Shown here one piece after another: positions 7,991 through 22,356 of a DNA stretch of 32,000 nucleotides; the stretch's first letter is position 1; each line of letters begins with the position of its first letter. The DNA is from Alkanindiges sp. WGS2144. Its GTDB lineage: Bacteria > Pseudomonadota > Gammaproteobacteria > Pseudomonadales > Moraxellaceae. The notes beneath the pieces were generated by a model. The model did not search any database. It saw only the letters and a list, made by a program, of their open reading frames with translations, and had not been told where the DNA came from. Position numbers and translations under genes: made by a program. Location: assembly GCF_043950625.1 (NCBI RefSeq), contig NZ_CP171007.1; one strand, written 5' to 3'.

Positions 7991-8754
7991 GATGTTTCGC
8001 TTTCTGGTAGTGGCTGGGGAGCAATGGCGATGGATGAAAGATCGGTGGCCTCGTCGATGACGTGGCCGGCCGCTTTCCGTTCGGAATAGCGGTCTGTCAG
8101 TGCTTCACGGTGCGGCCGTACCAGCGCCGTGAAGCGCACCAGTTCTTCCATCACATCGGCTATTCGGTCGTAGTACGGCGAGGGCTTCATGCGGCCCGCC
8201 GCGTCGAACTCTTGGAACGCTTTGGCGATACTCGACTGGTTCGGAATGGTGAACATTCGCATCCAGCGGCCGAGCAGACGCAAGGTGTTCACGGCGTTGA
8301 AGCTCTGCGAGCCGCCGGATACCTGCATCACGGCCAGGGTGCGGCCTTGGGTCGGCCGGATGCCGGCCATTTCAAGCGGCAGATGGTCAATCTGCGCCTT
8401 CATGACACTGGTAATCTGACCGTGGCGTTCCGGGCTGCACCAGACTTGTCCCTCTGACCACTCGGACAGGGCGCGCAGCTCCTTGACGGCCGGGTGATCG
8501 TCGCTTTGCACTTGATCGGGCAACGGCAAATCGGACGGGTCGAAGATGCGTGTTTCTGCGCCAAAGAATTGCAGCAGCCGGGCCGCTTCCTCGACGGCCA
8601 GCCGTGAGAACGAGCGGGCGCGCAGCGAGCCATACAGCAGCAGGATACGCACCGGCGGGGCGTCGGGTGCCAGCCCGAGCGCCGGGCGCTCGATGGCAAA
8701 GGATTTGTCCAAAGCGGGCAAAGAATCGGGGTCGGAAAGATGGCGAAGTCTCAT
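7987..8754 (-). CDS. arsH: ArsH, NADPH-dependent FMN reductase
   Basis: The sequence contains [19 protein letters not shown]...[17 protein letters not shown] typical of ArsH. I chose the start at 8754 because it forms an ATGA overlap with the arsR stop; the longer ORF to 8796 would overlap arsR by 46 nt. Confidence 0.85.
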
Positions 8755-9083
8755 GCCAACACCTTCCCGGCTTCCGTGGTGCAAGACAGGTTGCACACCT
8801 GGCCGCCGCAGCAGTTTTCCGTGAGAAAGGCCACCAGGTTAGTGGCCGTCGAAAAGTTCGCCTCGTAGATCACAAATCGGCCTTCTTGCCGCGACGTGAC
8901 CATGCCGGCGTGTGCCAGCTCTTTCAGGTGGAAGGATAGCGAAGACGGCGGGATGCCGGCCGCTTCGCTGATTTTTCCGGCGGCCATGCCGGCGGGGCCG
9001 GCCTGGACGAGAAGCCGGAACACCGCGAGGCGCGATTCTTGAGCGATGGCCGCCAGGGCGGCTACAGCATTTATCGTTTCCAT
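8751..9083 (-). CDS. arsR: ArsR/SmtB-family repressor with a C-terminal Cys cluster
   Basis: It has a winged-HTH core ([16 protein letters not shown]). It lacks the canonical ELCVCDL site and instead has ENCCGGQVC near the C-terminus, which resembles the Acidithiobacillus-type As(III) site. Confidence 0.85.
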
Positions 9084-9119
9084 GTTTCAATAATAGTCGA
9101 AATATGGAGTGTGCTCAAT

Positions 9120-9146
9120 AGCTCATTTAAGCTGTAAAAATGAGCT
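9120..9146. promoter_or_regulatory. Perfect 9-bp-arm inverted repeat in the arsR / recombinase divergent region (candidate operator)
   Basis: The repeat is agctcattt-aagctgtaa-aaatgagct, 37 bp upstream of the arsR start. Confidence 0.4.
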
Positions 9147-9230
9147 AGGCGCATTTAGATCGATATGTGATAAATTGGCCTGCCAGTTTAAGATGGGTGC
9201 ATTTGAGTATGCCCAAAGGAGCCCGCAAGT

Positions 9231-9968
9231 ATGCGCAGGACGAAGCCAGTAGCCGCGCCGATGGTGGCGCGGGTCTATCTGCGCGTCAGCACCGACGCGC
9301 AGGACTTGGAACGCCAAGAGGCGATCACTACGGCCGCGAAGGCCGCCGGCTACTACGTCGCCGGCATCTACCGTGAGAAGGCATCCGGCGCACGCGCCGA
9401 CCGGCCTGAGCTGCTGCGCATGATCGGCGACCTACAGCCCGGCGAGGTGGTCATTGCCGAGAAGATCGACCGCATCAGCCGCCTACCTTTGCCCGAGGCC
9501 GAGCGCCTGGTGGCCTCGATACAGGCCAAAGGCGCACGCCTGGCCGTCCCTGGCGTGGTCGATCTATCCGACCTGGCGGCCGAGGCCCAGGGCGTCGCCA
9601 AGATCGTGCTGGAAGCCGTGCAGATCATGCTTTTTCGCCTGGCCTTGCAGATGGCCCGCGACGACTACGAGGACAGGCGCGAACGCCAGCGCCAAGGCAT
9701 TGAGTTGGCCCGCCAGGCCGGGCGGTACAAGGGCCGCCGTGCTGATCCGAAGCGCCGCGCCCAAGTTGTCGCGCTGCGCAAGTCCGGCTACAGCATCAAC
9801 AAGACCGCCGAGCTGGCCGGGTACAGTGCGGCCCAGGTGAAACGGATATGGGCCGAGGTCAGCCAGGCCGAAGCGAAGCAGCACGGCGCGTTCGTGGAGG
9901 ACGCATTGACGGAAGCCGATGCCCTGGCCGCTGTCGGCCAGGATGAGCGCCAGGAGGAAAGGGCATGA
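9231..9968 (+). CDS. Small serine recombinase (resolvase/invertase family)
   Basis: It has the catalytic motif YLRVSTDAQDLERQ, then ADRPEL...GEVVIAEKIDRISR and a C-terminal HTH (GYSINKTAELAGYSAAQVKRI). An AAGGAG RBS precedes 9231. An alternative start is MVARVY at 9261. Confidence 0.85.
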   Translation: MRRTKPVAAPMVARVYLRVSTDAQDLERQEAITTAAKAAGYYVAGIYREKASGARADRPELLRMIGDLQPGEVVIAEKIDRISRLPLPEAERLVASIQAKGARLAVPGVVDLSDLAAEAQGVAKIVLEAVQIMLFRLALQMARDDYEDRRERQRQGIELARQAGRYKGRRADPKRRAQVVALRKSGYSINKTAELAGYSAAQVKRIWAEVSQAEAKQHGAFVEDALTEADALAAVGQDERQEERA

Positions 9969-10189
9969 AGAAGCCGAACCAAGACGACGAGCCGTTTTTC
10001 ATCACCGAGGAGATTGCGGCCGAAATGATCGCCGGCGGCTATGAGTTCGAGCTGCCGCCCATTCCTTGCACCATCCGCCTACGCGACGTGCTGGAGCGCA
10101 TGACCGATGCTGAGCTAGCATTGCAGCCGGGCGAGATCGCCGACCAGGAGCGTGAACGCTGCCGGCGCAAGCCGTGTTCAACCTCATGA
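9965..10189 (+). CDS. Hypothetical acidic protein (74 aa), translationally coupled to the recombinase gene
   Basis: It forms an ATGA overlap with the recombinase stop. I recognise no family. Confidence 0.45.
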   Translation: MKKPNQDDEPFFITEEIAAEMIAGGYEFELPPIPCTIRLRDVLERMTDAELALQPGEIADQERERCRRKPCSTS

Positions 10190-10195
10190 TCTGGT

Positions 10196-10288
10196 CATGG
10201 TATTTTTCATGGCACTGAGCCTGATAGTTCTTGCAAATTGTTGTCACTAAAGGGTTTTGTGTGCTTGTTTACAATCGAGTGGGAGTGA
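10196..10288 (+). other. Internal bipartite att-like site A (guaA 3'-end mimic)
   Basis: Block 1 is catggtatttttcatgg (10196-12). A 51-bp spacer follows. Block 2 is cttgtttacaatcgagtgggagtga (10264-88), which reads L-F-T-I-E-W-E-stop. Site B at 13488-13580 has the same architecture. Confidence 0.55.
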
Positions 10289-12126
10289 CGGGCACTGGCT
10301 GGCAATGTCTAGCAACGGCAGGCATTTCGGCTGAGGGTAAAAGAACTTTCCGCTAAGCGATAGACTGTATGTAAACACAGTATTGCAAGGACGCGGAACA
10401 TGCCTCATGTGGCGGCCAGGACGGCCAGCCGGGATCGGGATACTGGTCGTTACCAGAGCCACCGACCCGAGCAAACCCTTCTCTATCAGATCGTTGACGA
10501 GTATTACCCGGCATTCGCTGCGCTTATGGCAGAGCAGGGAAAGGAATTGCCGGGCTATGTGCAACGGGAATTTGAAGAATTTCTCCAATGCGGGCGGCTG
10601 GAGCATGGCTTTCTACGGGTTCGCTGCGAGTCTTGCCACGCCGAGCACCTGGTCGCTTTCAGCTGTAAGCGTCGCGGTTTCTGCCCGAGCTGTGGGGCGC
10701 GGCGGATGGCCGAAAGTGCCGCCTTGCTGGTTGATGAAGTACTGCCTGAACAACCCATGCGTCAGTGGGTGTTGAGCTTCCCGTTTCAGCTGCGTTTCCT
10801 GTTTGCCAGCCGGCCCGAGATCATGGGGTGGGTGCTGGGCATCGTTTACCGCGTCATTGCCACGCACCTGGTCAAGAAAGCGGGCCATACCCACCAAGTG
10901 GCCAAGACGGGCGCGGTCACCCTGATCCAGCGTTTTGGATCGGCGCTCAATCTGAATGTTCACTTCCACATGCTGTTTCTCGACGGTGTGTATGTCGAGC
11001 AATCCCACGGCTCAGCGCGTTTCCGCTGGGTCAAGGCGCCGACCAGCCCAGAGCTCACCCAGCTGACGCACACCATCGCCCACCGGGTGGGTCGCTATCT
11101 GGAACGGCAAGGCCTGCTGGAACGGGATGTCGAAAACAGCTATCTGGCCTCGGATGCGGTGGATGACGACCCGATGACACCCCTGCTGGGGCACTCGATC
11201 ACTTACCGTATCGCTGTCGGTTCACAGGCGGGGCGAAAGGTGTTCACTTTGCAAACTCTGCCGACCAGTGGTGATCCGTTCGGTGACGGGATTGGCAAGG
11301 TAGCCGGGTCCAGCCTGCACGCCGGCGTGGCGGCCAGGGCCGATGAACGCAAGAAGCTCGAACGGCTGTGCCGGTACATCAGCCGCCCGGCGGTATCCGA
11401 GAAGCGGCTGTCGTTAACACGAGGCGGCAACGTGCGCTACCAGCTCAAGACGCCGTACCGGGACGGCACCACGCACGTCATTTTCGAACCATTGGATTTC
11501 ATTGCAAGGCTGGCCGCCCTGGTACCGAAGCCCAGAGTCAACCTAACCCGCTTCCACGGGGTGTTCGCACCCAACAGTCGGCACCGGGCGTTGGTCACGC
11601 CGGCAAAACGGGGCAGGGGCAACAAGGTCAGGGTGGCTGATGAACCGGCAACACCAGCACAACGGCGAGCGTCGATGACATGGGCGCAACGGCTCAAGCG
11701 TGTTTTCAATATCGACATCGAGACCTGCAGCGGCTGCGGCGGCGCCATGAAAGTCATCGCCTGCATTGAAGACCCTATAGTGATCAAGCAGATCCTTGAT
11801 CACCTGAAGCACAAAGCCGAAACCAGCGGGACCAGGGCGTTACCCGAAAGCCGGGCGCCACCGGCTGAGCTGCTCCTGGGTCTGTTTGACTGACGAGCCT
11901 GAAGGCCAACGATACCAATCAAAATGCTGCGTTCACAGCGCCGCGGCAGGGATCCGCCGTGCTGGTTGTCGGAAAAGGAGCCGCTAGTGGGAAAGAGGAG
12001 GGTAAATTTTCAGCGTTGCTGGCTCCCCGTCAGCCGGATTGGGTTGCATCGCAGGGGTGTCGAAAGAGTCAACTGCGGTCCAAAGCTGTTGGACTTGGGT
12101 GAAAAGGGCGTTTATTCTTCCTATAC
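10289..12126 (+). mobile_element. ISCR2 (CR2), IS91-family rolling-circle element. The right (oriIS) end is placed at 12126; the left (terIS) end is only approximate.
   Basis: It contains the ISCR2 transposase gene. The right boundary ...gggcgtttattcttcctatac | gttg matches my recollection of IS91/ISCR oriIS ends and coincides with the point where glmM homology stops. The left boundary cannot be fixed from the sequence alone. Confidence 0.7.
10400..11893 (+). CDS. rcr2: ISCR2 rolling-circle transposase (IS91 family, 497 aa)
   Basis: It has an N-terminal zinc-binding region (CESCHAEHLVAFSCKRRGFCPSCGARR), the HUH-type motif NLNVHFHMLFLDGVY and a C-terminal CSGCGG. The length and sequence match ISCR2 as I remember it. 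Confidence 0.9.
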   Translation: MPHVAARTASRDRDTGRYQSHRPEQTLLYQIVDEYYPAFAALMAEQGKELPGYVQREFEEFLQCGRLEHGFLRVRCESCHAEHLVAFSCKRRGFCPSCGARRMAESAALLVDEVLPEQPMRQWVLSFPFQLRFLFASRPEIMGWVLGIVYRVIATHLVKKAGHTHQVAKTGAVTLIQRFGSALNLNVHFHMLFLDGVYVEQSHGSARFRWVKAPTSPELTQLTHTIAHRVGRYLERQGLLERDVENSYLASDAVDDDPMTPLLGHSITYRIAVGSQAGRKVFTLQTLPTSGDPFGDGIGKVAGSSLHAGVAARADERKKLERLCRYISRPAVSEKRLSLTRGGNVRYQLKTPYRDGTTHVIFEPLDFIARLAALVPKPRVNLTRFHGVFAPNSRHRALVTPAKRGRGNKVRVADEPATPAQRRASMTWAQRLKRVFNIDIETCSGCGGAMKVIACIEDPIVIKQILDHLKHKAETSGTRALPESRAPPAELLLGLFD

Positions 12127-12371
12127 GTTGTCGGCAGCGGGCCAAAAAGGAATACGTCCATGCCCATCGAGGTGAAACCGGCTGTGAGCGCGGGTTCAAG
12201 CATATAGCCCGACAGGCGCGTATCCTTGCCGATCACGACACGATGGCGGTGGTCACCGCGACGAAAGACACGGCCAGCCGCCATGCCGACGCGCAAGGCG
12301 GTTTCCGCCGTCATCGCGCCTTCGTTGGCTTTGCCACGAATACCGTCTGTGCCGAAATATTTGCGCACCAT
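12127..12371 (-). pseudogene. glmM: 5' fragment of phosphoglucosamine mutase gene (delta-glmM), truncated by the ISCR2 oriIS end
   Basis: [16 protein letters not shown]...[18 protein letters not shown]...GPLPT is collinear with the GlmM N-terminus and then runs into ISCR2 sequence. Only ~81 GlmM codons remain. Confidence 0.85.
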
Positions 12372-12457
12372 AAGGTCGATTATCCTGTCGTCGGGTCGCC
12401 CTCAAAGGGGACATGCCTGCTGAACCGCGAATATAGAGAAATATCCCGAATGTGCAG

Positions 12458-13273
12458 TTAACGAATTCTTGCGGTTTCTTTCAGCGCCGCCAATACCGCC
12501 AGCCCGTCGCGCAAGGGGCGCGGCTCGTGTGTGCGGATGAAGTCAGCTCCACCTGCGGCGGCGGCAAGCTCTGCAGCGAGTGTCGCGGCCCCGACATCCC
12601 CCGGACCACGGCCTGTGAGCGCGCGCAGAAAGGATTTGCGCGAAACAGACAGAAGCACCGGCAAATCGAAGCGCAGCCGCAATTCATCGAACCGCGCCAG
12701 CACCGAGAGCGAGGTTTCGGGAGCAGCCCCCAGAAAAAACCCCATGCCGGGATCAAGGACAAGGCGGTTGCGTTTGATACCGGCACCCGTCAGCGCCGCG
12801 ATGCGCGCGTCAAAGAACGCCGCAATGTGATCCATGATGTCGCCAGCGGGTGCCTCGCGCCGATCTGCCTGCCCGTCTTGCACCGAATGCATAACGACGA
12901 GTTTGGCAGATGATTTCGCCAATTGCGGATAGAACGCAGCGTCTGGAAAACCGCGAATATCATTGAGATAGGCCACACCACGCGACAAGGCATAGGCTTG
13001 CGTCGCGGGTTGATAACTGTCGAGCGAGACGGGAATGCCATCTGCCTTGAGCGCGTCCAGCACCGGCGCGATACGCGCGATTTCTGTGTCGGACGAAACA
13101 GGCGCGGCGTCGGGATTGCTGGATGCCGGACCGAGGTCGATCACATCTGCCCCCTCGGCCATCAGCTTACGCGCCTGCGCAATGGCTGCGTCTGGCGCCA
13201 GATACCGGCCTCCATCGGAGAAACTGTCCGAGGTTATGTTGACGATGCCGAAAATGATGAGCGATTTATTCAT
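12458..13273 (-). CDS. sul2: Sulfonamide-insensitive dihydropteroate synthase Sul2
   Basis: The 271-aa ORF begins MNKSLIIFGIVNITSDSFSDGGRY and ends LKETARIR, matching Sul2 as I recall it. It is adjacent to delta-glmM and ISCR2, the classical context. Confidence 0.95.
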   Translation of the reverse strand: MNKSLIIFGIVNITSDSFSDGGRYLAPDAAIAQARKLMAEGADVIDLGPASSNPDAAPVSSDTEIARIAPVLDALKADGIPVSLDSYQPATQAYALSRGVAYLNDIRGFPDAAFYPQLAKSSAKLVVMHSVQDGQADRREAPAGDIMDHIAAFFDARIAALTGAGIKRNRLVLDPGMGFFLGAAPETSLSVLARFDELRLRFDLPVLLSVSRKSFLRALTGRGPGDVGAATLAAELAAAAGGADFIRTHEPRPLRDGLAVLAALKETARIR

Positions 13274-13487
13274 GGGGGCTTCTATAATAATAATAATCGA
13301 GCATGAGTATCATACGGATGCTCGGGTCGAAAGGGAATCCCCAGGCGAGTAACCTGTTTGCGGTGATCCATTAGCTGCAGGAGCAGAAGAGCATACATCT
13401 GGAAGCAAAGCCAGGAAAGCGGCCTATGGAGCTGTGCGGCAGCGCTCAGTAGGCAATTTTTCAAAATATTGTTAAGCCTTTTCTGAG

Positions 13488-13580
13488 CATGGTATTTTTC
13501 ATGGTATTACCAATTAGCAGGAAAATAAGCCATTGAATATAAAAGATAAAAATGTCTTGTTTACAATAGAGTGGGAGTGA
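13488..13580 (+). other. Bipartite att-like site B, the probable attR / right end of the island
   Basis: Block 1 is catggtatttttcatgg (13488-504), with the CATGGTATT direct repeat at 12-bp spacing. A 51-bp spacer follows. Block 2 is cttgtttacaatagagtgggagtga (13556-80), which reads T-I-E-W-E-stop. The composition switches to host-like AT-rich DNA here. Confidence 0.6.
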
Positions 13581-13586
13581 TATTTG

Positions 13587-13620
13587 GCAGTGCTGCCTGC
13601 TAGAGTATGGCAGCACTTTG
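13587..13620 (+). terminator. Hairpin immediately after the guaA-like stop codon (candidate displaced guaA terminator)
   Basis: The stem agtgctgcc (13589-97) pairs with ggcagcact (13609-17) around an 11-nt loop. There is no strong T-run, so this is tentative. Confidence 0.3.
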
Positions 13621-13737
13621 CATAAATAAATATTAAGCCAAAATTTTCGTCTTTTATTGACGTGTGAGAATAAGGGTATTTACCATTTTTAAGCAAAACC
13701 AAATACAGAGCGGAAACTAGCTCCTTTCATCACGTTG

Positions 13738-14433
13738 TTAGGCACTTTTGGCCCATTGTTTCGCATGCCATTGGTAATATATTCTGCTATTTTTCCAGTT
13801 CTTGACTTGATTGCCATCTATTTTAGACAAAGCTTCTTCTAGTCTAATCGTAGTTCTTACATTCAAATTTCTGGTAACAAGTCCCTCCTTAATAAATACA
13901 TAGCCCTTTTCAAAAAAATCATCACAACCAAGTTTACACATCAATGATGCAATATTTGAAAAGTCTAATTTTTCGTGATTAGTACACTCTGACCTCTTCT
14001 TGATATGTGCAGCCACAAGCATATTTTCAGGGAGTTCATTATCACAGATTACGCACTTTCCAAATGGTTTCCCTTGAAGTAAAAAGGAACGTAAGAGTGT
14101 TTGCTCTATACGTCTTTTAGTTTTTGATTCGACATCAAGATTAGTATTTAAGATAGCCTTTTTTAACTCCTCTTCAACATTTGAAGAGCCGATGCAATCA
14201 ATATTTTTACTTACTATGAGAGATGGTGCGGAACCTATGCTTTTATTTGACATCCGTGCCCCATATCCCATGCGCACTAAAGCCTCTAATTGCTCTAATG
14301 TTTCAACTTTTACATAGTCAACTTCATAGCGCGTATGAGAAGCAATATATTTTTTATCCTTATGCAAGTGTGGATAAAGAGGTTTTCCAGCATTATTCTT
14401 ACTACGCTTATCCACGTATGCAACCAAGTTCAT
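13738..14433 (-). CDS. Solitary HNH-type (HNH_2/McrA-like) nuclease with an unrecognised ~120-aa N-terminal domain
   Basis: The C-terminal half, RRIEQTLLRSFLLQGKPFGKCVICDNELPENMLVAAHIKKRSEC...DFSNIASLMCKLGCDDFFEKGYVFI, follows the HNH_2 pattern (R.GQ..FR..LL....C.I.G......L.AAHI.P....D..N.L.LC...H..FD.G). It has a CxxC...CxxxC zinc pair. The last His is replaced (GCDDFF). The gene is very AT-rich relative to both flanks. Confidence 0.7.
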   Translation of the reverse strand: MNLVAYVDKRSKNNAGKPLYPHLHKDKKYIASHTRYEVDYVKVETLEQLEALVRMGYGARMSNKSIGSAPSLIVSKNIDCIGSSNVEEELKKAILNTNLDVESKTKRRIEQTLLRSFLLQGKPFGKCVICDNELPENMLVAAHIKKRSECTNHEKLDFSNIASLMCKLGCDDFFEKGYVFIKEGLVTRNLNVRTTIRLEEALSKIDGNQVKNWKNSRIYYQWHAKQWAKSA

Positions 14434-14655
14434 TTAATTTCCTTTAGTAAGCACTTTCAGAAATGCACAATACTTTAATACTGCGCAGGTTTGCATTTGA
14501 ATATAACAATAAATAATATTTTCAATTTAATATCATGATTAATGTAACTAGCTGAGTTGAAAAGCACAATTGGTCTGCACTATTGCTTATATTTATAAAA
14601 ATTAATTCAATCCACATTTGTATTTTCTAATTTGCGAACCTCACCAAATAAAGCT

Positions 14656-14665
14656 AGTATATACT
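14656..14665. promoter_or_regulatory. Perfect palindrome within the putative vapB promoter (candidate VapB operator)
   Basis: The palindrome agtatatact overlaps a TAGTAT/TATACT -10-like hexamer and lies ~30 bp upstream of the vapB start. TTGCGA lies about 17 bp further upstream. Confidence 0.35.
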
Positions 14666-14693
14666 TCACATATATAGCAAGATGAGGATAAAA

Positions 14694-14927
14694 ATGTCTA
14701 CTGGCTCAGTTTTTTTAAATAATCGCACGCAAGCAGTGCGCCTGCCTGCTGAAACTCGTTTTCCTGAGCATGTGCGGCAAGTCAATGTTCGGGTAAAAGG
14801 AAATGAACGTATTTTGTCACCTATAGAACACACGTGGGATAGCTTCTTTTTATCTACTACTCAAGTGCCTGATGACTTTTTACCAGAACGCGCTGAACAA
14901 ATAGATACTGAGCGTGAAAGCTTTTAG
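14694..14927 (+). CDS. vapB: VapB antitoxin (AbrB/SpoVT type; MvpA-like)
   Basis: VFLNNRTQAVRLPAETRFPEHVRQVNV...ERESF is collinear with Shigella/Salmonella VapB (MvpA). The GAGGAT RBS favours the ATG at 14694 over 14682. Confidence 0.85.
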   Translation: MSTGSVFLNNRTQAVRLPAETRFPEHVRQVNVRVKGNERILSPIEHTWDSFFLSTTQVPDDFLPERAEQIDTERESF

Positions 14928-14989
14928 TTATTTACGTTTCATTGTCCTATCTTCTTAAAATCTAAACCTATAATAATTCGGGCCGCCGC

Positions 14990-15388
14990 ATGCTGAAATA
15001 TATGCTGGATACCAATATTGCCATTTATGTGATTAAACGTCGGCCAATATCCGCACTAGAAAAATTTAACCAGCATGCCAGTCAAATGTGCGTGAGTAGC
15101 ATTACCGTGGCAGAGCTTATTCATGGTGCTGAAAAAAGCCAGAATAGTCAGCAGGCGTTTGCTGTGGTCGAGGATTTTCTATCGCGCTTAAGCATCTTGG
15201 ACTATGATTATTCCGCCGCAGGGCATTACGGTGATATACGTGCCGTTCTGGAGCGAAAAGGCACCCCGATTGGCGTAAATGACTTGCATATTGCTGGGCA
15301 TGCACGTAGCGCTGGCTTAATTTTAGTGACCAATAACCTGCGTGAGTTTGAGCGTGTCGAAGGGTTACGCCTAGATAATTGGGTTTAA
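14990..15388 (+). CDS. vapC: VapC PIN-domain toxin (MvpT-like, initiator-tRNA-cleaving subfamily by similarity)
   Basis: MLKYMLDTNIAIYVIKRRP...SSITVAELIHGAEKS...DLHIAGHARSAGLILVTNNLREFERVEGLRLDNW is collinear with the enterobacterial VapC MvpT. An alternative start is at 15002. Confidence 0.9.
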   Translation: MLKYMLDTNIAIYVIKRRPISALEKFNQHASQMCVSSITVAELIHGAEKSQNSQQAFAVVEDFLSRLSILDYDYSAAGHYGDIRAVLERKGTPIGVNDLHIAGHARSAGLILVTNNLREFERVEGLRLDNWV

Positions 15389-15414
15389 GCCATAAACATT
15401 TAAAAGGTTAAAAT

Positions 15415-15690
15415 ATGCCCGCCATCGTCCGCCACATTTTAGTTAAAACTCGCGAACAGGCCGAACAGCTAAAAAGCCAGCTAGCAAAGGGCGCAGATTT
15501 TGCCAAGCTGGCCAAACAACACTCCACCTGTAATTCGGCTAAGAAAGGTGGCGAGCTGGGTGAAGTTAAAAAAGGTCAGTTGGTCAAACCAATTGATACA
15601 GTGGTGTTTAGCAAGGCAGAGCGGGTGGTACATGGGCCGATCAAAAGCCAGTTTGGTTTTCATCTGGTGGAAATCAAGTTTCGCTATTAA
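15415..15690 (+). CDS. ppiC: Parvulin-type peptidyl-prolyl cis-trans isomerase C
   Basis: The 91-aa ORF has HILVKTREQAEQLK...GGELGEVKKGQLVKPIDTVVFS...GPIKSQFGFHLVEI, the PpiC pattern. Confidence 0.85.
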   Translation: MPAIVRHILVKTREQAEQLKSQLAKGADFAKLAKQHSTCNSAKKGGELGEVKKGQLVKPIDTVVFSKAERVVHGPIKSQFGFHLVEIKFRY

Positions 15691-15718
15691 TGCTTACTAT
15701 GTTTTTATCAATCAAAAT

Positions 15719-15749
15719 AAGAAGCATGAGTTTTTAACCCATGCTTCTT
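15719..15749. terminator. Bidirectional terminator hairpin between ppiC and the convergent small gene
   Basis: The 10-bp stem aagaagcatg / catgcttctt has an 11-nt loop and A/T-rich flanks. Confidence 0.6.
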
Positions 15750-15765
15750 ACAAAGAATAAACCAG

Positions 15766-15951
15766 CTAGCGTGATTGCTGATAGTTGTTATGGTTAGTCT
15801 GCCCACCTTCTGGGCCAAGACCTGAGTTACGGTTCTGGCGGGTGCTCTGGTTGCGGTTATCTTGATTGTTACCGCCATGATCCTGCACCAGCTGTCCATT
15901 GACTTCTTTCACATTATGACCACCAGCAGGCTGGTTTTGCTTATGAGACAT
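15766..15951 (-). CDS. Small (61 aa) highly hydrophilic Asn/Gln/Gly-rich protein, hydrophilin-like
   Basis: A strong GGAGG RBS lies 7 nt before the ATG and the terminator hairpin lies just downstream. The sequence MSHKQNQPAGGHNVKE...GGNNQDNRNQSTRQNRNSG has no hydrophobic core. Confidence 0.6.
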   Translation of the reverse strand: MSHKQNQPAGGHNVKEVNGQLVQDHGGNNQDNRNQSTRQNRNSGLGPEGGQTNHNNYQQSR

Positions 15952-16116
15952 AAGGTTCCTCCATTACTGAGCTGACACTTTTACCCTAAAGCAAACTGGC
16001 TTTGCTGGCTGTTAAGAAATGCTGTGTTTTTAATGTTTATGTAATAGTTTGCTTCTAACCGTAGCAAAAGCGACTACACTGTTTACATCTTAAAGCTGTC
16101 TGCCTGGGAACATCGT

Positions 16117-17118
16117 ATGTCTGGATTGTCATCATGCAAATATTCTATTCTGGATTTAGCGCCCATTCGGGATGATGGTGACGCAGCCACTGCATTAAAA
16201 AACTGCCTGAGCCTAGCACAGCATGCTGAACAATGGGGTTATACCCGTTTCTGGGTAGCAGAGCATCACAATATGGATGGTATTGCCAGCTCGGCTACAG
16301 CGGTACTGGTGGGTTATCTGGCAGCCAATACCAACAGTATTCGGGTAGGTTCAGGCGGGGTGATGCTACCCAATCATTCACCGCTGGTCGTGGCTGAACA
16401 ATTTGGGACGCTGGCAGCCTTGTATCCCAACCGTATTGATTTAGGGCTGGGGCGTGCACCGGGCGCAGATCAGTACACGGCGAGGGCGTTACGCCGTAAC
16501 CATCTGGAAACGGCTGAGGAATTTCCTGAAGATGTAAGCATGATTCAAACCCTGTTGGGGGATGAGCAGCCTAACCAGCGCATTAAAGCAGTGCCAGGAC
16601 AGGGCACGCATGTACCCATCTGGCTGTTGGGTTCCAGCCTGTTTAGTGCGCAACTGGCTGCTGCCAGGGGTTTGCCTTATGCTTTTGCATCGCATTTTGC
16701 GCCACGTTTCATGATGGATGCCATCCGTCTGTATCGGGAAAATTTTAAGCCATCCAATGTTCTGCACAAGCCCTACGTGATGCTGGGCGTGCCACTGATT
16801 GCTGCCGATACCGATGAGCAGGCGCATTATCTGGCTACCAGTCTGTACCAGCGTATTTTAAATTTAATGCAGGGTAAAAGTATTAAAAGCCAGCCGCCGG
16901 TTCAGCACATGCCGCCATTAAGCCTGCAGGAACAGGCTGGCCTGAACAGCTTTTTAGGCATGGCAGCCATTGGTTCAGCAACTACGGTACAGCAGCGGTT
17001 AACCCAGATTATTGAGCAAACACAAGCAGATGAGCTGATTTTTACTGGTGATTTATACGACTGGTCAGACCGTTTGCATAGCTTTGAAATTTTAGCGCAG
17101 ATTTTTAAAAATGCTTAA
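16117..17118 (+). CDS. LLM-class (luciferase-like) flavin-dependent oxidoreductase, YhbW-like
   Basis: [27 protein letters not shown]...[22 protein letters not shown]...[11 protein letters not shown] is typical of this family. Confidence 0.85.
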
Positions 17119-17226
17119 CCTAAACAGTGACAGATCAGTATAAATAAAAAGTCTAATAATCCCTTAATTTTTTTATGGAATTGTTATACTGCCTGCTTGA
17201 AAATTTGGGGTTGAAGGGCTTTTTTT

Positions 17227-18030
17227 ATGACATCACTGCAAAGAACATCATCGCATGTGCTGTTTGATAATGGCGTGCACAAATGTATTAGCTTTACCAG
17301 TCTGGTAAAGGGGGAAGGAGTTCAGGCCAATCAGTTTTTAATTATTGATGGTCAGGAAGCAGCCGTGATTGATCCGGGGGGTGATTTAACCTATACACCG
17401 CTTACCATTGAGCTGTCACGCTATGTACGGCTGGAAAATTTAAAATATGTCATGGCATCACATCAGGATCCGGACATTATTACCTCCATGCCGCGCTGGC
17501 TGGTACACACCAATGCCAAGATTGTAGCATCCAAGCTATGGGCACGTTTTTTGCCACACCTCAATTCGGCGTTTATGAGTGATCGTATCAAAGGCGGTAG
17601 CTGGCTGGATCGTTTGATTGAAGTGCCTGATCAGGGGCAAACCATTACTTTAGGCAATTCTTCTCTCAAGATCGTACCAGCCCACTTTTTACATTCAGTG
17701 GGTAACTTTCAGTTTTATGATCCGGTTGCCAAAATTTTGTTTTCCGGCGATATGGGGGCATCCATTGTGGATACTGCCAATGAGCCGGTGCAGGATTTTC
17801 TGGCGCACGTCCCAACCATGAGGGGCTTTCACCAGCGTTATATGACGTCCAGCCGGGTTATTCGCTTATGGGCCAATATGGTGCGTAATATGGATGTTGA
17901 GATGATGGTGCCACAACATGGTCGTCCGTTTTATGGCAAGGAGATGATCCACCAGTTTCTGGACTGGGTGGAAAGCCTGGAATGCGGGATTGATTTATTA
18001 ACACAGTCAAACTATCGCTGCCCAGACTAA
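17227..18030 (+). CDS. MBL-fold metallo-hydrolase / di-iron (flavodiiron-N-terminal-like) domain protein
   Basis: It has the metal motif ASHQDPDI (H-x-D-x-D) and later His/Asp ligands (SGDMG, VPQHG). The exact function is not assignable. Confidence 0.7.
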   Translation: MTSLQRTSSHVLFDNGVHKCISFTSLVKGEGVQANQFLIIDGQEAAVIDPGGDLTYTPLTIELSRYVRLENLKYVMASHQDPDIITSMPRWLVHTNAKIVASKLWARFLPHLNSAFMSDRIKGGSWLDRLIEVPDQGQTITLGNSSLKIVPAHFLHSVGNFQFYDPVAKILFSGDMGASIVDTANEPVQDFLAHVPTMRGFHQRYMTSSRVIRLWANMVRNMDVEMMVPQHGRPFYGKEMIHQFLDWVESLECGIDLLTQSNYRCPD

Positions 18031-18038
18031 AAAAACCT

Positions 18039-18071
18039 GCCTAATCCCTCTGGTATAAAGGGGGATTAGGC
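18039..18071. terminator. Bidirectional terminator hairpin between the MBL gene and argA
   Basis: The 10-bp stem is gcctaatccc / gggattaggc, preceded by an A-run. Confidence 0.6.
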
Positions 18072-18079
18072 CAATGTCT

Positions 18080-19426
18080 TCAAATATTTTTCATAAAGAT
18101 TTTGGAGTTACGCTGATAGTTGTATAGCGCCTGACGGGCATTAGGCATGGCTTCTACGGGAGCCGGTTCAAAGCCCTGTTCAATAAACCAGTGTGCGGTA
18201 CGGGTTGTCAGGACGAACAGGTGGTGAATGCCTTTGCTGCGTGCCTTGGCTTCCAGATAATCCAGTAACTCGGCACCCCGGTTACCACTGCGGTAATTGG
18301 GATGCACGGCTACACAGGCTATTTCGGCGGCTTGTGGCTCGTCATTACTGGTAGGAATAGGATACAGGGCAGCACAGCCCACAATCATGCCATCACGTTC
18401 AATCACGGCAAATTTGTCGATCTCGGTTTCCAGCCGCTCACGTGAGCGATATACCAAAATACCTTCTTCTTCCAGTGGGCGTAACAGTTCAATTAAGCCG
18501 ACCACGTCGTCAATATCAGCAATGCGGATTTCTTCATAGGGGTCATGGCTAATGAGGGTACCGGAACCATCACGGGTAAACAGTTCCTGCAATAATGCAC
18601 CATCTCGCGCGTAGGAGATAATATGCACCCGGCGCACCCCACCGCGGCAGGCTTCTGAGGCACCTTTCATATGTAGTAAGAGTTCAGAGTCCAGTGGTTT
18701 GTTTCTTAAATACTGATCCACTTCATTGGGAATCAATTCACGTAACAGGCGGTCATCGTCATCACTAATGCCTTCTTTTTCACCCAGGAAAATCAGCTTA
18801 TCGGCTTTTAGGGCAATGGCGGTTTTAACCGCGACTTCTTCGGCCAGCAGGTTAAACACTTCACCGGTAGTTGAGTAACCGGTTGGCCCCAGCACAATAA
18901 TATTGCGATTGGCCAGATTTTTTTGCAGGGCGTCCACATCCACCGAGCGCACCTCGCCGGTAAGCTGATAGTCCACGCCATCACGCACGCCATAGGGACG
19001 CGCAGTAACAAAGTTACCTGACACGGCATCAATGCGTGCGCCATACATGGGGGAGTTGGCTAGTCCCATGGATAACAGGGCTTCAATTTCCAGGCGAATA
19101 GAACCTACCGCGTCCAGTACACAGCGCAGGGCTTCACGGGTGGTAATGCGCAGGTCATTATGAAATGGGGTTTCCAGATGATATTCAATCAGGTTTTCAT
19201 TGATTTGCGGTCGGGCACCGTGCACCAGAATCAGCTTGATCCCCAGTGAATGCAGCAGGGCGATATCATGAATAATATTGCGAAAATTTTCATGGTTAAC
19301 CGCTTCACCGCCAAACATCAGCACAAAGGTTTTATCACGGTGGGCATTGATATAGGGTGCAGAATTACGAAACCAGTGAACATATTGTTCAGTCATGGTA
19401 TCCGGGCATAAAAATTCATCGGTCAT
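18080..19426 (-). CDS. argA: Amino-acid N-acetyltransferase (N-acetylglutamate synthase)
   Basis: FVHWFRNSAPYINAHRDKTFVLMFGGEAV marks the AAK domain, and a C-terminal GNAT domain is present (IACVAVHPNYRSGNRGAELL). An alternative start is at 19396. Confidence 0.9.
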   Translation of the reverse strand: MTDEFLCPDTMTEQYVHWFRNSAPYINAHRDKTFVLMFGGEAVNHENFRNIIHDIALLHSLGIKLILVHGARPQINENLIEYHLETPFHNDLRITTREALRCVLDAVGSIRLEIEALLSMGLANSPMYGARIDAVSGNFVTARPYGVRDGVDYQLTGEVRSVDVDALQKNLANRNIIVLGPTGYSTTGEVFNLLAEEVAVKTAIALKADKLIFLGEKEGISDDDDRLLRELIPNEVDQYLRNKPLDSELLLHMKGASEACRGGVRRVHIISYARDGALLQELFTRDGSGTLISHDPYEEIRIADIDDVVGLIELLRPLEEEGILVYRSRERLETEIDKFAVIERDGMIVGCAALYPIPTSNDEPQAAEIACVAVHPNYRSGNRGAELLDYLEAKARSKGIHHLFVLTTRTAHWFIEQGFEPAPVEAMPNARQALYNYQRNSKIFMKNI

Positions 19427-19504
19427 GATGCGTGTGGTCTACCTGTTAAGTGTATAAATTCTTTGGCCAGAGCAAGTGCTATCTTAAGGCAGGGCAGGCT
19501 CATT

Positions 19505-20671
19505 TTAAAAGCGGGCATGCCCTTGCACACAATAGTAATGAATGAGCTGATTAAGCAATAACACCATCGGTGAAATATTCTTGATTTCCAGATACTCGTC
19601 CGGCTGGTGTGCCTGTTCAATATTGCCTGGCCCCAAAATCACAGCGTCCATGCCTTGCGCTCTGAAATACGGCGCTTCTGTACCAAAAGCTACGGCACCG
19701 GCAGGCTCACCCAGCAGGCTTTCTATTTTTTGTACAAACGGTGAGCTGGCAGGGGTTTCTGCAGGCGCTGACCCGGCTGTGGCAGGTTCATACAGCATAC
19801 TCACCCCAAATTGCTGTTCAATACCCTGTAACAGCTGGTGAATATCGGCACGGATGTGCTCAATGTCCATACCCGGCAAGGGGCGTATATCAAACTGTAA
19901 TTCGCACAGGCCACAAATGCGGTTGGGGTTGTCACCGCCATGAATACAGCCCAGATTTAAAGTTGGATAGGGCACTGGAAAAATGGGCTGCTGGATTTTT
20001 TTGAGGTTGCTGCGAAATTGCTGCAAGCGTGAGATGACTTCATGCATGGCATCAATGGCATTACGGCCAAGCTCCGGATCACTGGAGTGCCCTGACTGGC
20101 CGGTAACCACTACTCGCTCCAGCATGACGCCTTTATGCAGGCGGGCAGGTTTAAGGCCGGTTGGTTCACCAATTAACACAAAACGCCCTTGTCCCTTGGC
20201 CTGTTCCATCAGGGCACGCGCACCCGCCATGGAAGTTTCTTCATCACAGGTGGCAATGACGATGAGCGGTGCCCGTAAAGGGGTTTTGGCATAGCTGGCA
20301 GCGGCTTCATGTACCAGGGCAAAAAAGCCTTTCATATCGGCCATACCCAAACCAAACAGCTTGCCATCACGCTCGACCATATTAAATGGATCGCTTTGCC
20401 ACAGGTTTTGGTCAAATGGAACGGTGTCAGAGTGACCCGCCAGAACCAGTCCGCCACGTGCTTCTGGATCAAGTCCCGGGCGCACGGCAATCAGGTTTGC
20501 CTTGCCTGGCGCAACCGGCATGATCTCACAGTTAAAACCGGCAGACTCAAACCAGTTAGCCAGTATTTCAATAACCGGCAGGTTGGACATATCCTGATCC
20601 GGCATGGTACAGGAAATGCTGGGGGTAGCGGTTAGTTGGGCAAGTTGCTGGCGCAAACGCGGCTTAAGCAT
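19505..20671 (-). CDS. argE: Acetylornithine deacetylase
   Basis: It is collinear with E. coli ArgE (LAGHSDTVPFD, GLGMADMKGFFA, ATCDEETSMAGAR, QSGHSSDP, YPTLNLGCIHGGDNPNRICG, NIEQAHQPDEYLE). Confidence 0.9.
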   Translation of the reverse strand: MLKPRLRQQLAQLTATPSISCTMPDQDMSNLPVIEILANWFESAGFNCEIMPVAPGKANLIAVRPGLDPEARGGLVLAGHSDTVPFDQNLWQSDPFNMVERDGKLFGLGMADMKGFFALVHEAAASYAKTPLRAPLIVIATCDEETSMAGARALMEQAKGQGRFVLIGEPTGLKPARLHKGVMLERVVVTGQSGHSSDPELGRNAIDAMHEVISRLQQFRSNLKKIQQPIFPVPYPTLNLGCIHGGDNPNRICGLCELQFDIRPLPGMDIEHIRADIHQLLQGIEQQFGVSMLYEPATAGSAPAETPASSPFVQKIESLLGEPAGAVAFGTEAPYFRAQGMDAVILGPGNIEQAHQPDEYLEIKNISPMVLLLNQLIHYYCVQGHARF

Positions 20672-20773
20672 ACGTAGTCCATATTCTAATGATTAAGTCT
20701 TTGGGCGCAGATTCCAGTCTGGCCAGTTGCACTCTACTGTGCCACAACCGGCTCATAAGATAAACCATAGGGT

Positions 20774-21541: not shown

Positions 21542-21620
21542 ATTGCCCTCCTGGATTACCGCCCGATTGCGGCCAAGGCAGCCGCAAAATCAATTCATCG
21601 TTTTCATTAAACGGGTCTTA

Positions 21621-22355: not shown

Positions 22356-22356
22356 C

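What the first reader, a model, noticed from the sequence alone, without database searches (positions are those of the whole stretch)
13581..14693. Very AT-rich islet at the integration hotspot encoding an orphan HNH nuclease with an unknown N-terminal domain
Gene 13738-14433 (231 aa, minus strand) is clearly more AT-rich than both the island and the neighbouring housekeeping genes, so it is probably itself horizontally acquired. Its C-terminal ~100 aa follow the HNH_2/McrA-like pattern, with a CxxC...CxxxC zinc pair and the AAHI catalytic His. The last canonical His is replaced, giving GCDDFFEKG instead of CH..FD.G. The N-terminal ~120 aa (YPHLHKDKKYIASHTRYEVDYVKVETLEQLEALVRMGYGARMS...) match nothing I recognise. 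No methyltransferase or other partner ORF is adjacent. About 260 bp of ORF-free AT-rich DNA lies upstream, and a vapBC module lies next door. A solitary sensor-plus-HNH protein next to a TA module and an integration hotspot is the typical layout of a modification-dependent (type IV) restriction enzyme or a single-gene anti-phage or anti-MGE defence. The N-terminal domain would be the specificity determinant. This is the best candidate in the window for an uncharacterised system.
Basis: partly seen in the sequence, partly recalled or inferred. Interest (0 to 1): 0.65.

Follow-up and report, generated by a model that had tools for sequence, protein, structure and literature searches.

The report
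Solitary HNH nuclease with new sensor domain
A rare, horizontally acquired single gene encodes a DNA-cutting enzyme whose nuclease half matches a known modified-DNA restriction enzyme, while its front half is an undescribed small domain that other bacteria attach to several defence-type enzymes, so it is probably a one-gene anti-phage or anti-plasmid nuclease with a new kind of sensor.

Summary
ORF 13738-14433 (minus strand, 231 aa) is intact and strongly AT-rich (GC 0.356, against a 0.402 minimum for same-size windows in the chromosomal part). It starts just past the attR core (13569-13576) of a 100%-identical GIsul2 island. No methyltransferase is adjacent, and a vapBC module lies next door.

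Residues ~86-231 (two linker helices plus the HNH domain) are homologous to the nuclease module of VcaM4I, a characterised EVE-HNH modification-dependent restriction enzyme. The VcaM4I catalytic residues map to H143, N160, D171 and E175. The 'missing last His' is the same Asp substitution that VcaM4I has, so it is not a defect.

Residues 1-82 form a confidently modelled small beta-barrel with no Pfam, PDB or viral-structure match. It is nevertheless a widespread independent module. Elsewhere it is fused to a second HNH family, to UDG-superfamily domains (also found split into adjacent genes), to ASCH and weakly to TIR, and it is common as a stand-alone ~80-aa protein.

The full-length family is rare and patchy, has no conserved neighbour, and in Vibrio parahaemolyticus is a single-gene integron cassette.

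Best reading: a type IV-like, single-protein defence nuclease with a new sensor domain. What that domain binds is unknown. The host is probably Alkanindiges, not Acinetobacter.

The parts
13738..14433 (-). Complete gene, 231 aa plus stop: small-barrel domain, helical linker, HNH nuclease
   Evidence: ORF listing and sequence. There are ~75 full-length homologues at 43-82% identity. The AF2 model has pLDDT 94.4 and pTM 0.87.
14188..14433 (-). Residues 1-82: new small beta-barrel domain (six or seven strands and one helix), the putative sensor or targeting module
   Evidence: The domain-only model has pLDDT 89.3. No Pfam or NCBIfam hit. Best PDB Foldseek E is 0.38 (SH3/PWWP-like); best BFVD E is 0.029. 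The profile finds 227 representative clusters in several architectures.
14074..14187 (-). Residues 83-120: two linker helices (H86-99, H104-119) carrying invariant R108, E110, Q111, L114 and R115
   Evidence: Secondary structure. The segment aligns to the end of the linker helices and the start of the HNH domain of VcaM4I, residues 171-204. In VcaM4I the linker (residues 148-178) auto-inhibits the nuclease (PMC7897488).
13738..14073 (-). Residues 121-231: beta-beta-alpha-Me (HNH) nuclease with a predicted Cys4 zinc site (C127, C130, C166, C170), catalytic H143 (codon 14005-14007), N160, D171 and E175, plus C-terminal helices
   Evidence: Family profile vs PDB: 6yex VcaM4I, E 8.4e-7. Foldseek: 6yex E 8.5e-5, probability 1.0. 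Pfam HNH_2 scores 16.1 bits, below the curated cut-off of 21. PADLOC 'HNH' 4.5e-5. Residue invariance.
13707..13724 (-). Terminator-like hairpin 14 nt after the stop codon
   Evidence: Consensus scan: 3 terminator-like sites found in the region against 0.4 expected.
14434..14681 (.). 248-bp spacer at 27% GC between the gene and the divergent vapB. It contains the Shine-Dalgarno AAGGA (14440-14444) and presumably both promoters.
   Evidence: Sequence; GC. Promoter-like sites are not enriched over shuffles. No Rfam match.
13569..13576 (+). attR core (GAGTGGGA) of GIsul2, the junction that defines the left edge of the islet (context, not part of the system)
   Evidence: PMC9376610 gives the core sequence and places the end of attR 304 bp upstream of sul2. 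Identity to plasmid-borne copies ends at 13575-13584.
14682..15388 (+). Neighbouring vapB (14682-14927) and vapC (14990-15388) toxin-antitoxin module (context; not conserved next to homologues)
   Evidence: NCBIfam VapB 1.2e-29 and VapC 2.4e-54; Pfam PIN. It is absent from the neighbourhoods of the other 20 loci.

Best explanation
The gene encodes a self-contained defence nuclease of the type IV (modification-dependent) restriction kind, built from a known nuclease module and a new sensor module.

Shown:
- The C-terminal two-thirds is a VcaM4I-type helical linker plus HNH domain, with all catalytic equivalents intact.
- The N-terminal 80 aa is an autonomous small beta-barrel domain that evolution has repeatedly joined to effector enzymes.
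- The gene is solitary, mobile and rare.

Inferred by analogy with VcaM4I:
- The protein dimerises through its HNH domains.
- The linker helices hold the nuclease in an auto-inhibited state.
- When the small barrel binds a feature of incoming DNA that the host genome lacks, inhibition is released and the HNH dimer makes a double-strand break nearby. The most likely feature is a modified base.
- Because host DNA lacks the mark, no protective methyltransferase is needed.

The ligand of the barrel domain is not known.
For: 1. Nuclease module. The family profile hits only VcaM4I in the PDB (E 8.4e-7, query residues 90-230 against chain residues 171-305). Foldseek with the pLDDT-94 model also hits only VcaM4I (E 8.5e-5, probability 1.0). 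VcaM4I catalytic residues H224, N241, D250 and D254 (mutants inactive, PMC7897488) align to H143, N160, D171 and E175. These are conserved in 68/68, 56/68, 68/68 and 66/68 family members.

2. Sensor swapping on the same nuclease. The closest HNH-half relatives (35-53% identity in the table) carry other N-termini, including MrcB_N/PF12102 at 1.1e-28 in P0099. About 327-aa forms occur in 37 viral or prophage contigs and in Firmicutes.

3. The small barrel is a shuffled module:
- 227 representative clusters in total;
- 14 HNH fusions of this type among the top 150;
- one fusion to a different, classical HNH (PF01844, 2.1e-11) in the opposite domain order;
- 15 fusions to a UDG-superfamily domain (Pfam UDG in 5 of 10 members, best E 3.5e-4);
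- one split version with the two genes 36 bp apart (hhalign E 3.3e-56);
- ASCH (3.4e-4, just above the curated cut-off);
- TIR (2.7e-4, below the curated cut-off).

4. The barrel is basic on average (+5.2 in stand-alone and UDG-fused forms; +5 in the window copy).

5. Autonomy and mobility. No neighbour is conserved across 21 loci. The V. parahaemolyticus homologue is a single-gene cassette bracketed by attC-type repeats, in an array with ccdAB, TIR, HEPN_AbiV and toxSAS-like genes. Other copies lie next to integrases, IS91, AIPR and ccdAB. Here the gene is a GC outlier at the GIsul2 junction.

6. Integron cassettes and AT-rich islands are documented reservoirs of single-gene defences, including UDG-like glycosylases that act on modified phage DNA (10.1101/2025.10.29.685425; 10.1101/2024.07.02.601686).
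Against: - There are no functional data for any family member.
- The barrel matches no known modified-base reader (PUA/SRA/EVE/YTH, MrcB_N, winged helix, SBD). Its best structural neighbours are insignificant SH3/PWWP-type barrels, so 'reads a modification' is inference only.
- UDG enzymes recognise their base themselves, and TIR does not act on DNA. These fusions fit a general DNA-tethering domain or a non-DNA sensor equally well.
- The HNH-fused copies are less basic (+1.3 to +1.8).
- Three of the four stand-alone copies examined have no obvious effector neighbour.
- Pfam HNH_2 and PADLOC scores are weak.
- The Cys4 zinc site has no counterpart in VcaM4I, so regulation and dimerisation may differ.
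- No promoter was identified.
Confidence: 0.5

Rival explanations
1. It is a defence nuclease, but the small barrel does not read DNA modification. It senses another infection cue (a phage protein, a DNA end or structure, or a small molecule) and switches on whichever effector it is attached to.
For: The same domain is joined to mechanistically unrelated effectors: two HNH families, UDG-like domains, ASCH and, weakly, TIR. It has no fold match to any known base-flipping reader. Many copies are free-standing, one on a phage-like contig with Bro-N, T7_gp14-like and resolvase genes.
Against: Most identified partners act on DNA or on bases. The TIR hit is below the curated cut-off. The nuclease scaffold and its nearest relatives are those of modification-dependent enzymes. 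The domain is basic on average.
Confidence: 0.2
2. The small barrel is a non-specific double-stranded-DNA-binding tether, like the Sso7d or chromo-type SH3 barrels. The protein would then be a DNA-processing or repair accessory nuclease, or a selfish addiction or homing-type nuclease of mobile elements, and not an immune sensor.
For: Weak SH3/chromo-barrel/KOW-like structural neighbours. Positive charge. Attachment through long flexible linkers to UDG-like domains. Location in mobile DNA.
Against: An unregulated non-specific HNH with no immunity partner would be toxic, yet no partner is conserved. The gene is not in an intron, intein or phage genome: there is no full-length hit in 50,697 phage genomes, in IMG/VR or in 72,556 plasmids. 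It is far too rare and patchy for a repair function. The linker residues shared with the VcaM4I nuclease module are invariant.
Confidence: 0.15
3. It is the nuclease subunit of a multi-gene system (for example a Septu PtuB-like effector) whose partner was lost or lies elsewhere, so it is inactive or a remnant here.
For: Weak PADLOC PtuB hit (E 0.0036). Weak Foldseek hit to PtuB of retron Ec78 (E 1.6).
Against: No ATPase or any other recurrent neighbour in 21 loci. It occurs as a single-gene integron cassette. All 27 columns that are invariant across the 68-member family alignment, including the catalytic and cysteine residues, are retained in the window copy.
Confidence: 0.05

Closest known systems
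VcaM4I / TspA15I-group EVE-HNH modification-dependent restriction endonucleases (PDB 6YEX; PMC7897488, PMC6765204)
   Same: Single polypeptide ordered N-terminal sensor, helical linker, C-terminal HNH. The linker-plus-HNH module is homologous (profile E 8.4e-7; Foldseek probability 1.0). The catalytic set is the same, with Asp replacing the last His. No methyltransferase partner.
   Different: The N-terminal domain here is an ~80-aa small barrel, not a ~147-aa EVE/PUA domain, and has no detectable similarity to it. This family also has an invariant CxxC...CxxxC set. The aligned VcaM4I segment has a single Cys, and the word 'zinc' does not occur in the VcaM4I paper's text. The protein is ~80 residues shorter.
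MrcB_N (DUF3578, PF12102)-HNH proteins and the ~327-aa Firmicutes/prophage HNH proteins (P0099; alignment A7)
   Same: Closest sequence relatives of the nuclease half (35-53% identity in the table). They have the same CxxC / AAHIKKRS-C / MCK-GCD motifs and the same sensor-then-nuclease order.
   Different: Their N-termini are different: a McrB-type domain in P0099, and an unassigned ~190-aa domain in the others. They occur mainly in Gram-positive bacteria and prophages, whereas the full-length family is in Gammaproteobacteria.
EcoKMcrA, ScoMcrA and TagI (HNH type IV restriction enzymes)
   Same: General logic: a reader domain plus a beta-beta-alpha-Me nuclease, solitary genes in mobile DNA, with zinc-stabilised HNH domains in some. 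This comparison rests on the literature as cited in PMC7897488 and PMC7461809.
   Different: No sequence-level match to them was found here. Their readers (NEco, SBD, SRA) are unrelated to the small barrel.
Brig1/Brig2-type UDG-family defence glycosylases (PMC11078745; 10.1101/2025.10.29.685425)
   Same: In other proteins the small barrel is fused to, or encoded next to, a UDG-superfamily domain. Like Brig2 homologues, these genes are compact, AT-rich, associated with mobile elements and found in integrons.
   Different: The window protein has no glycosylase domain. Whether the barrel-linked UDG-like proteins are Brig homologues was not tested, because no Brig sequences were at hand.
Septu PtuB HNH effector
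   Same: HNH_2-like nuclease with a weak PADLOC hit (E 0.0036).
   Different: There is no PtuA ATPase partner, the match covers only ~65 residues, and the architecture differs.

Membership tests
HNH / beta-beta-alpha-Me nuclease superfamily | Sequence or structure match to an HNH family | tested here: met
   Profile vs PDB: VcaM4I HNH, E 8.4e-7. Foldseek E 8.5e-5, probability 1.0. PADLOC 'HNH' 4.5e-5.
HNH / beta-beta-alpha-Me nuclease superfamily | Pfam HNH_2 (PF13391) curated cut-off reached | tested here: not met
   16.1 bits against a cut-off of 21, and only the first 28 of 66 profile positions matched. This is a divergent subfamily.
HNH / beta-beta-alpha-Me nuclease superfamily | General-base His and metal ligands present | tested here: met
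   H143, N160, D171 and E175 align to VcaM4I H224, N241, D250 and D254. They are conserved in 68/68, 56/68, 68/68 and 66/68 members.
[quoted passage not shown] | Nuclease domain fused to a separate domain from a recognised modified-DNA reader family | tested here: not met
   The N-domain has no Pfam, NCBIfam, PDB or BFVD match. It is a separate, autonomous domain, but not a known reader.
[quoted passage not shown] | No cognate methyltransferase; acts as a solitary gene | tested here: met
   The window neighbours are sul2 and vapBC. No neighbour is conserved in 21 loci. It occurs as a single-gene integron cassette.
[quoted passage not shown] | Cleavage requires modified DNA; restricts modified phage or plasmid DNA | not testable with these tools
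   This needs biochemistry and plating assays.
VcaM4I/TspA15I EVE-HNH family | N-terminal EVE (PUA-superfamily) domain | tested here: not met
   The domain-only model gives no PUA, EVE, SRA, YTH or ASCH hit among the 50 listed PDB matches, and none of the 524 matches reaches E 0.001. The profile match to 6yex covers only the linker and HNH.
Septu (PtuA-PtuB) | Adjacent PtuA ATPase gene | tested here: not met
   No ATPase in the window flanks and no recurrent neighbour.
Type II toxin-antitoxin or nuclease-immunity pair | Conserved adjacent small partner gene | tested here: not met
   Neighbour clustering over 21 loci found none. vapBC is a complete, separate module.
Integron gene cassette | Gene bounded by attC recombination sites inside a cassette array | tested here: inconclusive
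   Met for the V. parahaemolyticus homologue: repeats at L055 9840-9976 and 10699-10820 flank the gene at 10001-10702. Not met in the window, where no attC-like repeats occur in 13300-15000.
HNH homing endonuclease / phage HNH | Located in an intron, intein or phage genome | tested here: not met
   No tblastn hit in 50,697 phage genomes. No full-length copy in IMG/VR. The contexts are chromosomal islands and cassettes.

The most novel reading that the evidence does not exclude
The ~80-aa barrel (signature RG..G..L.PH...DG.YVVS.TRF..DY..V ... G...RMS ... PSLI.P.SI) is a previously undescribed, widely shuffled sensor domain of prokaryotic immunity. It would be a new class of reader for modified or otherwise foreign DNA.

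On this reading it arms at least four effector types: two unrelated HNH families, UDG-like glycosylases, ASCH and possibly TIR. The window gene would be one member of a new family of single-protein restriction enzymes.

The abundant free-standing copies, some on phage-like contigs, could be trans-acting partners of the effectors. They could instead be phage decoys that shield the recognised mark.
Probability: 0.3. Interest if true: 0.75.

Novelty: new variant of a known kind. Interest (0 to 1): 0.6.

Why it matters
Modification-dependent nucleases are both a layer of bacterial immunity and practical tools for mapping DNA modifications. Each new reader domain has opened a new specificity. This locus gives a compact (231 aa), confidently modelled enzyme that pairs a validated nuclease scaffold with an uncharacterised reader-like domain. 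The same domain recurs with nuclease, UDG-like glycosylase and ASCH partners, and weakly with TIR.

Finding its ligand would explain a whole set of unannotated defence-island and integron-cassette genes. It could also yield a new reagent for detecting a DNA modification.

The locus also shows that the guaA/GIsul2 integration junction carries accessory defence-type cargo next to a resistance island.

Tried and rejected
1. Pfam, NCBIfam and PADLOC on the whole protein gave only sub-threshold HNH-type hits and nothing for residues 1-90.
2. Foldseek of the N-domain-only model against PDB and BFVD gave nothing significant: best E 0.38 (SH3/PWWP) and 0.029 (an uncharacterised phage 7-11 protein). 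I rejected a PUA/EVE assignment.
3. The UDG idea for the barrel's main fusion partner gave mixed results. PDB hmmsearch was negative. hhalign against E. coli Mug aligned only motif A, with probability 29%. A per-member Pfam scan then gave UDG in 5 of 10 members, best E 3.5e-4. I accepted it as a sub-threshold superfamily assignment.
4. The search for a conserved partner gene was negative, so the toxin-antitoxin and Septu-like readings were rejected.
5. attC sites, repeats and RNA elements in the window flanks: none found. Promoter-like sites are not enriched.
6. A pattern scan of viral and metagenome contigs with the stand-alone-domain alignment failed because the alignment was too diverse.
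7. Stand-alone domain contexts: only 1 of 4 has a UDG-like neighbour, so 'always a split two-gene system' was rejected.
8. Phage and plasmid collections contain no full-length relative, so the phage-gene, homing-endonuclease and plasmid-gene readings were rejected.
9. The literature contains no description of this domain or family. The Sirona and Nemetona HNH-like integron cassettes could not be compared because no sequences were at hand.
Full report
**1. The observation**

The ORF at 13738-14433 (minus strand) is real. An AAGGA Shine-Dalgarno motif lies 6 nt before the ATG (read). A terminator-like hairpin (13724-13707) follows the stop codon by 14 nt.

The AT-richness is a genuine outlier:

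| Region | GC |
|---|---|
| Gene 13738-14433 | 0.356 (GC3 0.306) |
| Upstream spacer 14434-14681 (248 bp) | 0.27 |
| Whole islet 13582-14693 | 0.338 |
| Island, 1-13581 | 0.581 |
| Chromosomal part, 15389-32000 | 0.482 |
| Lowest 696-bp window in the chromosomal part | 0.402 |

The left boundary is a true recombination junction.
- Positions 1 to ~13576 are 100% identical to GIsul2 (RepA, RepC, TrbL, arsB, ISVsa3/ISCR2, sul2) in many plasmids and chromosomes.
- The GIsul2 att core GAGTGGGA lies at 13569-13576. A second copy lies at 10277-10284, about 119 bp upstream of the ISCR2 gene. This is the layout described for attR and attLR in PMC9376610.
- That paper also documents the 3' end of guaA as the island's preferred site. 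guaA itself lies outside the window, so the 'downstream of guaA' statement is plausible but not verifiable here.

On the right, vapB and vapC are confirmed: NCBIfam 1.2e-29 and 2.4e-54, Pfam PIN 5.9e-20. No methyltransferase is nearby.

Flanking housekeeping proteins fall in >=90%-identity clusters with Alkanindiges illinoisensis and A. hydrocarboniclasticus proteins. The host is therefore most likely Alkanindiges (Moraxellaceae), not Acinetobacter.

**2. The protein family**

A search of 5.8 billion proteins returned 104 relatives.
- About 75 are full-length (227-247 aa, 43-82% identity). They come from Pseudomonas, Vibrio, Brenneria, Neptunomonas, Shewanella, Alteromonas, Photobacterium and metagenomes. 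Sources name them only 'hypothetical protein' or 'HNH endonuclease'.
- The window's exact protein is a singleton.
- Both halves are conserved. Invariant residues include P21, A31, D39 and G56 in the N-domain; R108, E110, Q111, L114 and R115 in the linker; and C127, C130, A141, A142, H143, K145, R147, C150, E154, C166, G169, C170 and D171 in the nuclease.
- Among 185,579 species-representative genomes, only about 18 carry a near-full-length copy, and none of these is from Moraxellaceae.
- No full-length copy exists in 50,697 phage genomes, IMG/VR viral contigs or 72,556 plasmids.

The gene is a rare, patchily distributed accessory gene.

**3. The nuclease half**

Pfam HNH_2 is only sub-threshold (16.1 bits against 21). 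PADLOC gives a generic 'HNH' model at 4.5e-5 and PtuB at 0.0036.

The decisive match is to VcaM4I.
- The 68-sequence family profile hits one real PDB entry, 6yex (E 8.4e-7), aligning residues 90-230 to chain residues 171-305.
- The AlphaFold2 model (pLDDT 94.4, pTM 0.87) also finds only 6yex by Foldseek (E 8.5e-5, probability 1.0).
- VcaM4I is an EVE-HNH, 5mC/5hmC-dependent restriction enzyme. It dimerises through its HNH domains, and its linker helix auto-inhibits the nuclease. Its catalytic residues H224, N241, D250 and D254 were validated by mutagenesis, and D250 stands in for the last His of the HNH motif (PMC7897488).
- In the alignment these residues correspond to H143, N160, D171 and E175.

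It is the normal state of this nuclease clade and not a sign of decay.

This family additionally has an invariant CxxC...CxxxC set (C127, C130, C166, C170), which from general knowledge of HNH enzymes I interpret as a structural zinc site. The aligned VcaM4I segment lacks it. This interpretation is an inference, because I could not inspect model coordinates.

**4. Sensor swapping on the same nuclease**

The nearest relatives of the nuclease half (35-53% identity in the table) are ~320-aa proteins with different N-termini.
- One of them, P0099, carries MrcB_N/PF12102 at 1.1e-28.
- A large set of ~327-aa proteins in Firmicutes genomes, Gram-positive plasmids and 37 viral or prophage contigs carries an unassigned ~190-aa N-domain.
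- Their profile again matches only the VcaM4I linker plus HNH (E 8.5e-9).

A constant nuclease with interchangeable N-terminal domains is the architecture described for modification-dependent restriction enzymes (PMC6765204, PMC7897488).

**5. The N-terminal domain**

Residues 1-82 fold into a small beta-rich domain: strands at 3-6, 18-21, 29-32, 41-43, 58-62 and 71-73, plus a further strand at 78-80 in the domain-only model, and a helix at 46-54. It models equally well alone (pLDDT 89.3).

It has no Pfam, NCBIfam or PADLOC family. It has no significant structural neighbour. The best PDB E is 0.38, among SH3, PWWP, chromo-barrel and KOW-type barrels, and the best viral E is 0.029. I therefore describe it as a small barrel of SH3-like appearance whose relationships are unknown.

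It is not an orphan. A profile of the domain finds 227 clusters (at 50% identity) among 1.84 billion representatives, 101 of them at E <= 1e-10. I classified the top 150 with my own HMMs:

| Architecture | Count |
|---|---|
| Stand-alone ~80-aa proteins or fragments | 109 |
| Barrel followed by this HNH (4 with an extra N-terminal extension) | 14 |
| Fusion to a ~260-aa domain, usually with the barrel C-terminal after a low-complexity linker | 15 |
| Other N-terminal partners | 9 |
| Barrel followed by an unassigned C-terminal extension of more than 60 aa | 2 |
| Tandem duplication | 1 |

The ~260-aa partner carries invariant 'GITPG..Q', 'H.TS' and 'PH.S' motifs. The UDG assignment was tested as follows:
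- PDB hmmsearch was negative.
- hhalign against E. coli Mug aligned motif A only, with probability 29%.
- Pfam UDG was the only recurrent family when members were scanned individually: 5 of 10 members, best E 3.5e-4, spanning both motifs.

I accept a UDG-superfamily assignment at sub-threshold confidence. On one metagenomic contig the same two modules are separate genes 36 bp apart (hhalign E 3.3e-56), so that pairing is functional and not accidental.

Other partners:
- ASCH (3.4e-4, just above the curated cut-off);
- a classical HNH of a different family, in the opposite domain order (PF01844, 2.1e-11);
- TIR_2, weakly (2.7e-4, below the curated cut-off).

The domain is basic on average: +5.2 in stand-alone and UDG-fused forms, +5 in the window copy, but only +1.3 to +1.8 across the HNH-fused family.

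Three of the four stand-alone copies I could inspect have no obvious effector neighbour, and one lies on a phage-like contig.

**6. Genomic context of homologues**

Clustering all ORFs within +/-8 kb of 21 family loci found no recurrent neighbour.

| Organism | Context |
|---|---|
| Brenneria | Directly after an integrase, next to an AIPR abortive-infection gene |
| Neptunomonas, Vibrio sp. MA40-2 | Integrase-bounded blocks of unannotated genes |
| Shewanella, V. breoganii | Next to an IS91 transposase and a XerC-like integrase |
| Sediminihaliea | Next to ccdAB |
| V. parahaemolyticus | Inside a chromosomal integron cassette array with ccdAB, barstar, TIR, HEPN_AbiV, RelA/SpoT-like and PAAR-nuclease genes |

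In V. parahaemolyticus the gene (L055 10001-10702) is bracketed by attC-type repeats at 9840-9976 and 10699-10820, so it is a single-gene cassette.

Integron cassettes and AT-rich islands are documented reservoirs of compact single-gene defences, including UDG-like glycosylases that attack modified phage DNA (10.1101/2024.07.02.601686; 10.1101/2025.10.29.685425). The window copy has no attC-like repeats.

**7. Mechanism**

Shown:
- an intact VcaM4I-type linker-plus-HNH module;
- an autonomous N-terminal module that is repeatedly recombined with effector enzymes;
- solitary, mobile, rare genes.

Inferred:
- HNH-mediated dimerisation and linker auto-inhibition, as in VcaM4I;
- release of inhibition when the barrel engages a feature of foreign DNA, followed by a double-strand break;
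- self-tolerance without a methyltransferase, because the host lacks the feature.

The most probable feature is a base modification, given the nuclease lineage and the UDG and ASCH partners. I put the whole reading at about 0.5.

Rivals:
- The barrel senses a non-modification cue (0.2).
- The barrel is a generic DNA tether on a non-immune or selfish nuclease (0.15).
- The gene is a remnant of a multi-gene system (0.05).

**8. Comparison and novelty**

It works like a type IV restriction enzyme and shares its nuclease module with VcaM4I. It is not a member of the EVE-HNH family, because the EVE domain was tested and is absent. It also cannot yet be filed as a type IV enzyme: its sensor is not a recognised reader, and modification dependence is untested.

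I found no paper describing the barrel domain or this family. The HNH-like integron systems Sirona and Nemetona could not be compared.

I rate it a new variant of a known kind, with interest 0.6. The nuclease is ordinary. The sensor domain and its network of effector fusions are not, and the claim is directly testable with a 231-aa protein.

Noticed in passing
window 1-13576: The left 13.6 kb is 100% identical to GIsul2 (RepA, RepC, TrbL, arsB, ISVsa3/ISCR2, truncated glmM, sul2), with att cores GAGTGGGA at 10277-10284 (attLR) and 13569-13576 (attR). The island looks site-specifically integrated and potentially excisable, here in what is probably an Alkanindiges chromosome.
   Followed up: partly
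window 13586-13616 (+): A perfect 9-bp stem (AGTGCTGCC / GGCAGCACT) with an 11-nt loop, followed by TTTG, lies immediately after attR. It is probably the original guaA terminator, now separated from guaA by the island.
   Followed up: no
window 14682-15388: The vapBC module (VapC of the tRNA-fMet-cleaving subfamily) has intermediate GC (0.42-0.46, vapB GC3 0.32), and VapC is a singleton at 90% clustering. It may have arrived with the HNH gene as part of one older islet at the guaA site.
   Followed up: partly
window 15415-20671 (host identity): The parvulin and ArgA proteins cluster at >=90% identity with Alkanindiges illinoisensis and A. hydrocarboniclasticus. The chromosomal GC of ~0.48 is also higher than the ~0.39-0.42 I recall as typical for Acinetobacter.
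   Followed up: partly
L054 1084-2219: On a 2.6-kb metagenomic contig of small co-oriented genes, a 285-aa UDG-like gene is followed 36 bp later by an 80-aa stand-alone barrel gene. This is the split form of the ~370-aa fusion proteins.
   Followed up: yes
P0161, P0268, P0144, P0164: Further architectures of the small barrel: classical HNH (PF01844) plus barrel; TIR_2 (weak) plus barrel; tandem barrel-barrel; ASCH plus barrel. P0185 and P0218 look by eye like a second UDG-like variant (GFSKG..Q / HPSGANG).
   Followed up: partly
L061-L097 and L023-L048 (alignment A7): A large family of ~327-aa proteins in Firmicutes genomes and in 37 IMG/VR prophage-like contigs shares this HNH module. Its conserved ~190-aa N-domain is unassigned (consensus WGVTPGK...KIQ.GDVTLFS...IFASGVV) and by eye is reminiscent of PUA/EVE-like barrels. 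No Pfam or PDB hit.
   Followed up: partly
L011 vs L013: Two MAGs labelled as different taxa (Sediminihaliea sp. and Rhodospirillaceae bacterium) share the same gene order for >8 kb around the family gene. This points to recent transfer or to a binning or labelling error.
   Followed up: no
L055 / L056 (V. parahaemolyticus integron array): The cassette array around the homologue is dense in defence-type genes: CAP12-PCTIR TIR, HEPN_AbiV, RelA_SpoT-like pair, PAAR-Endonuclease_NS_2 with a YezG-like immunity gene, a protein kinase, MazG, ccdAB and barstar. Many unannotated cassettes lie between them.
   Followed up: no
L059 1337-1600: A stand-alone barrel gene sits on a phage-like contig (Bro-N, T7_gp14-like, resolvase). 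This raises the possibility that phages carry the domain, for example as a decoy or anti-restriction factor.
   Followed up: no
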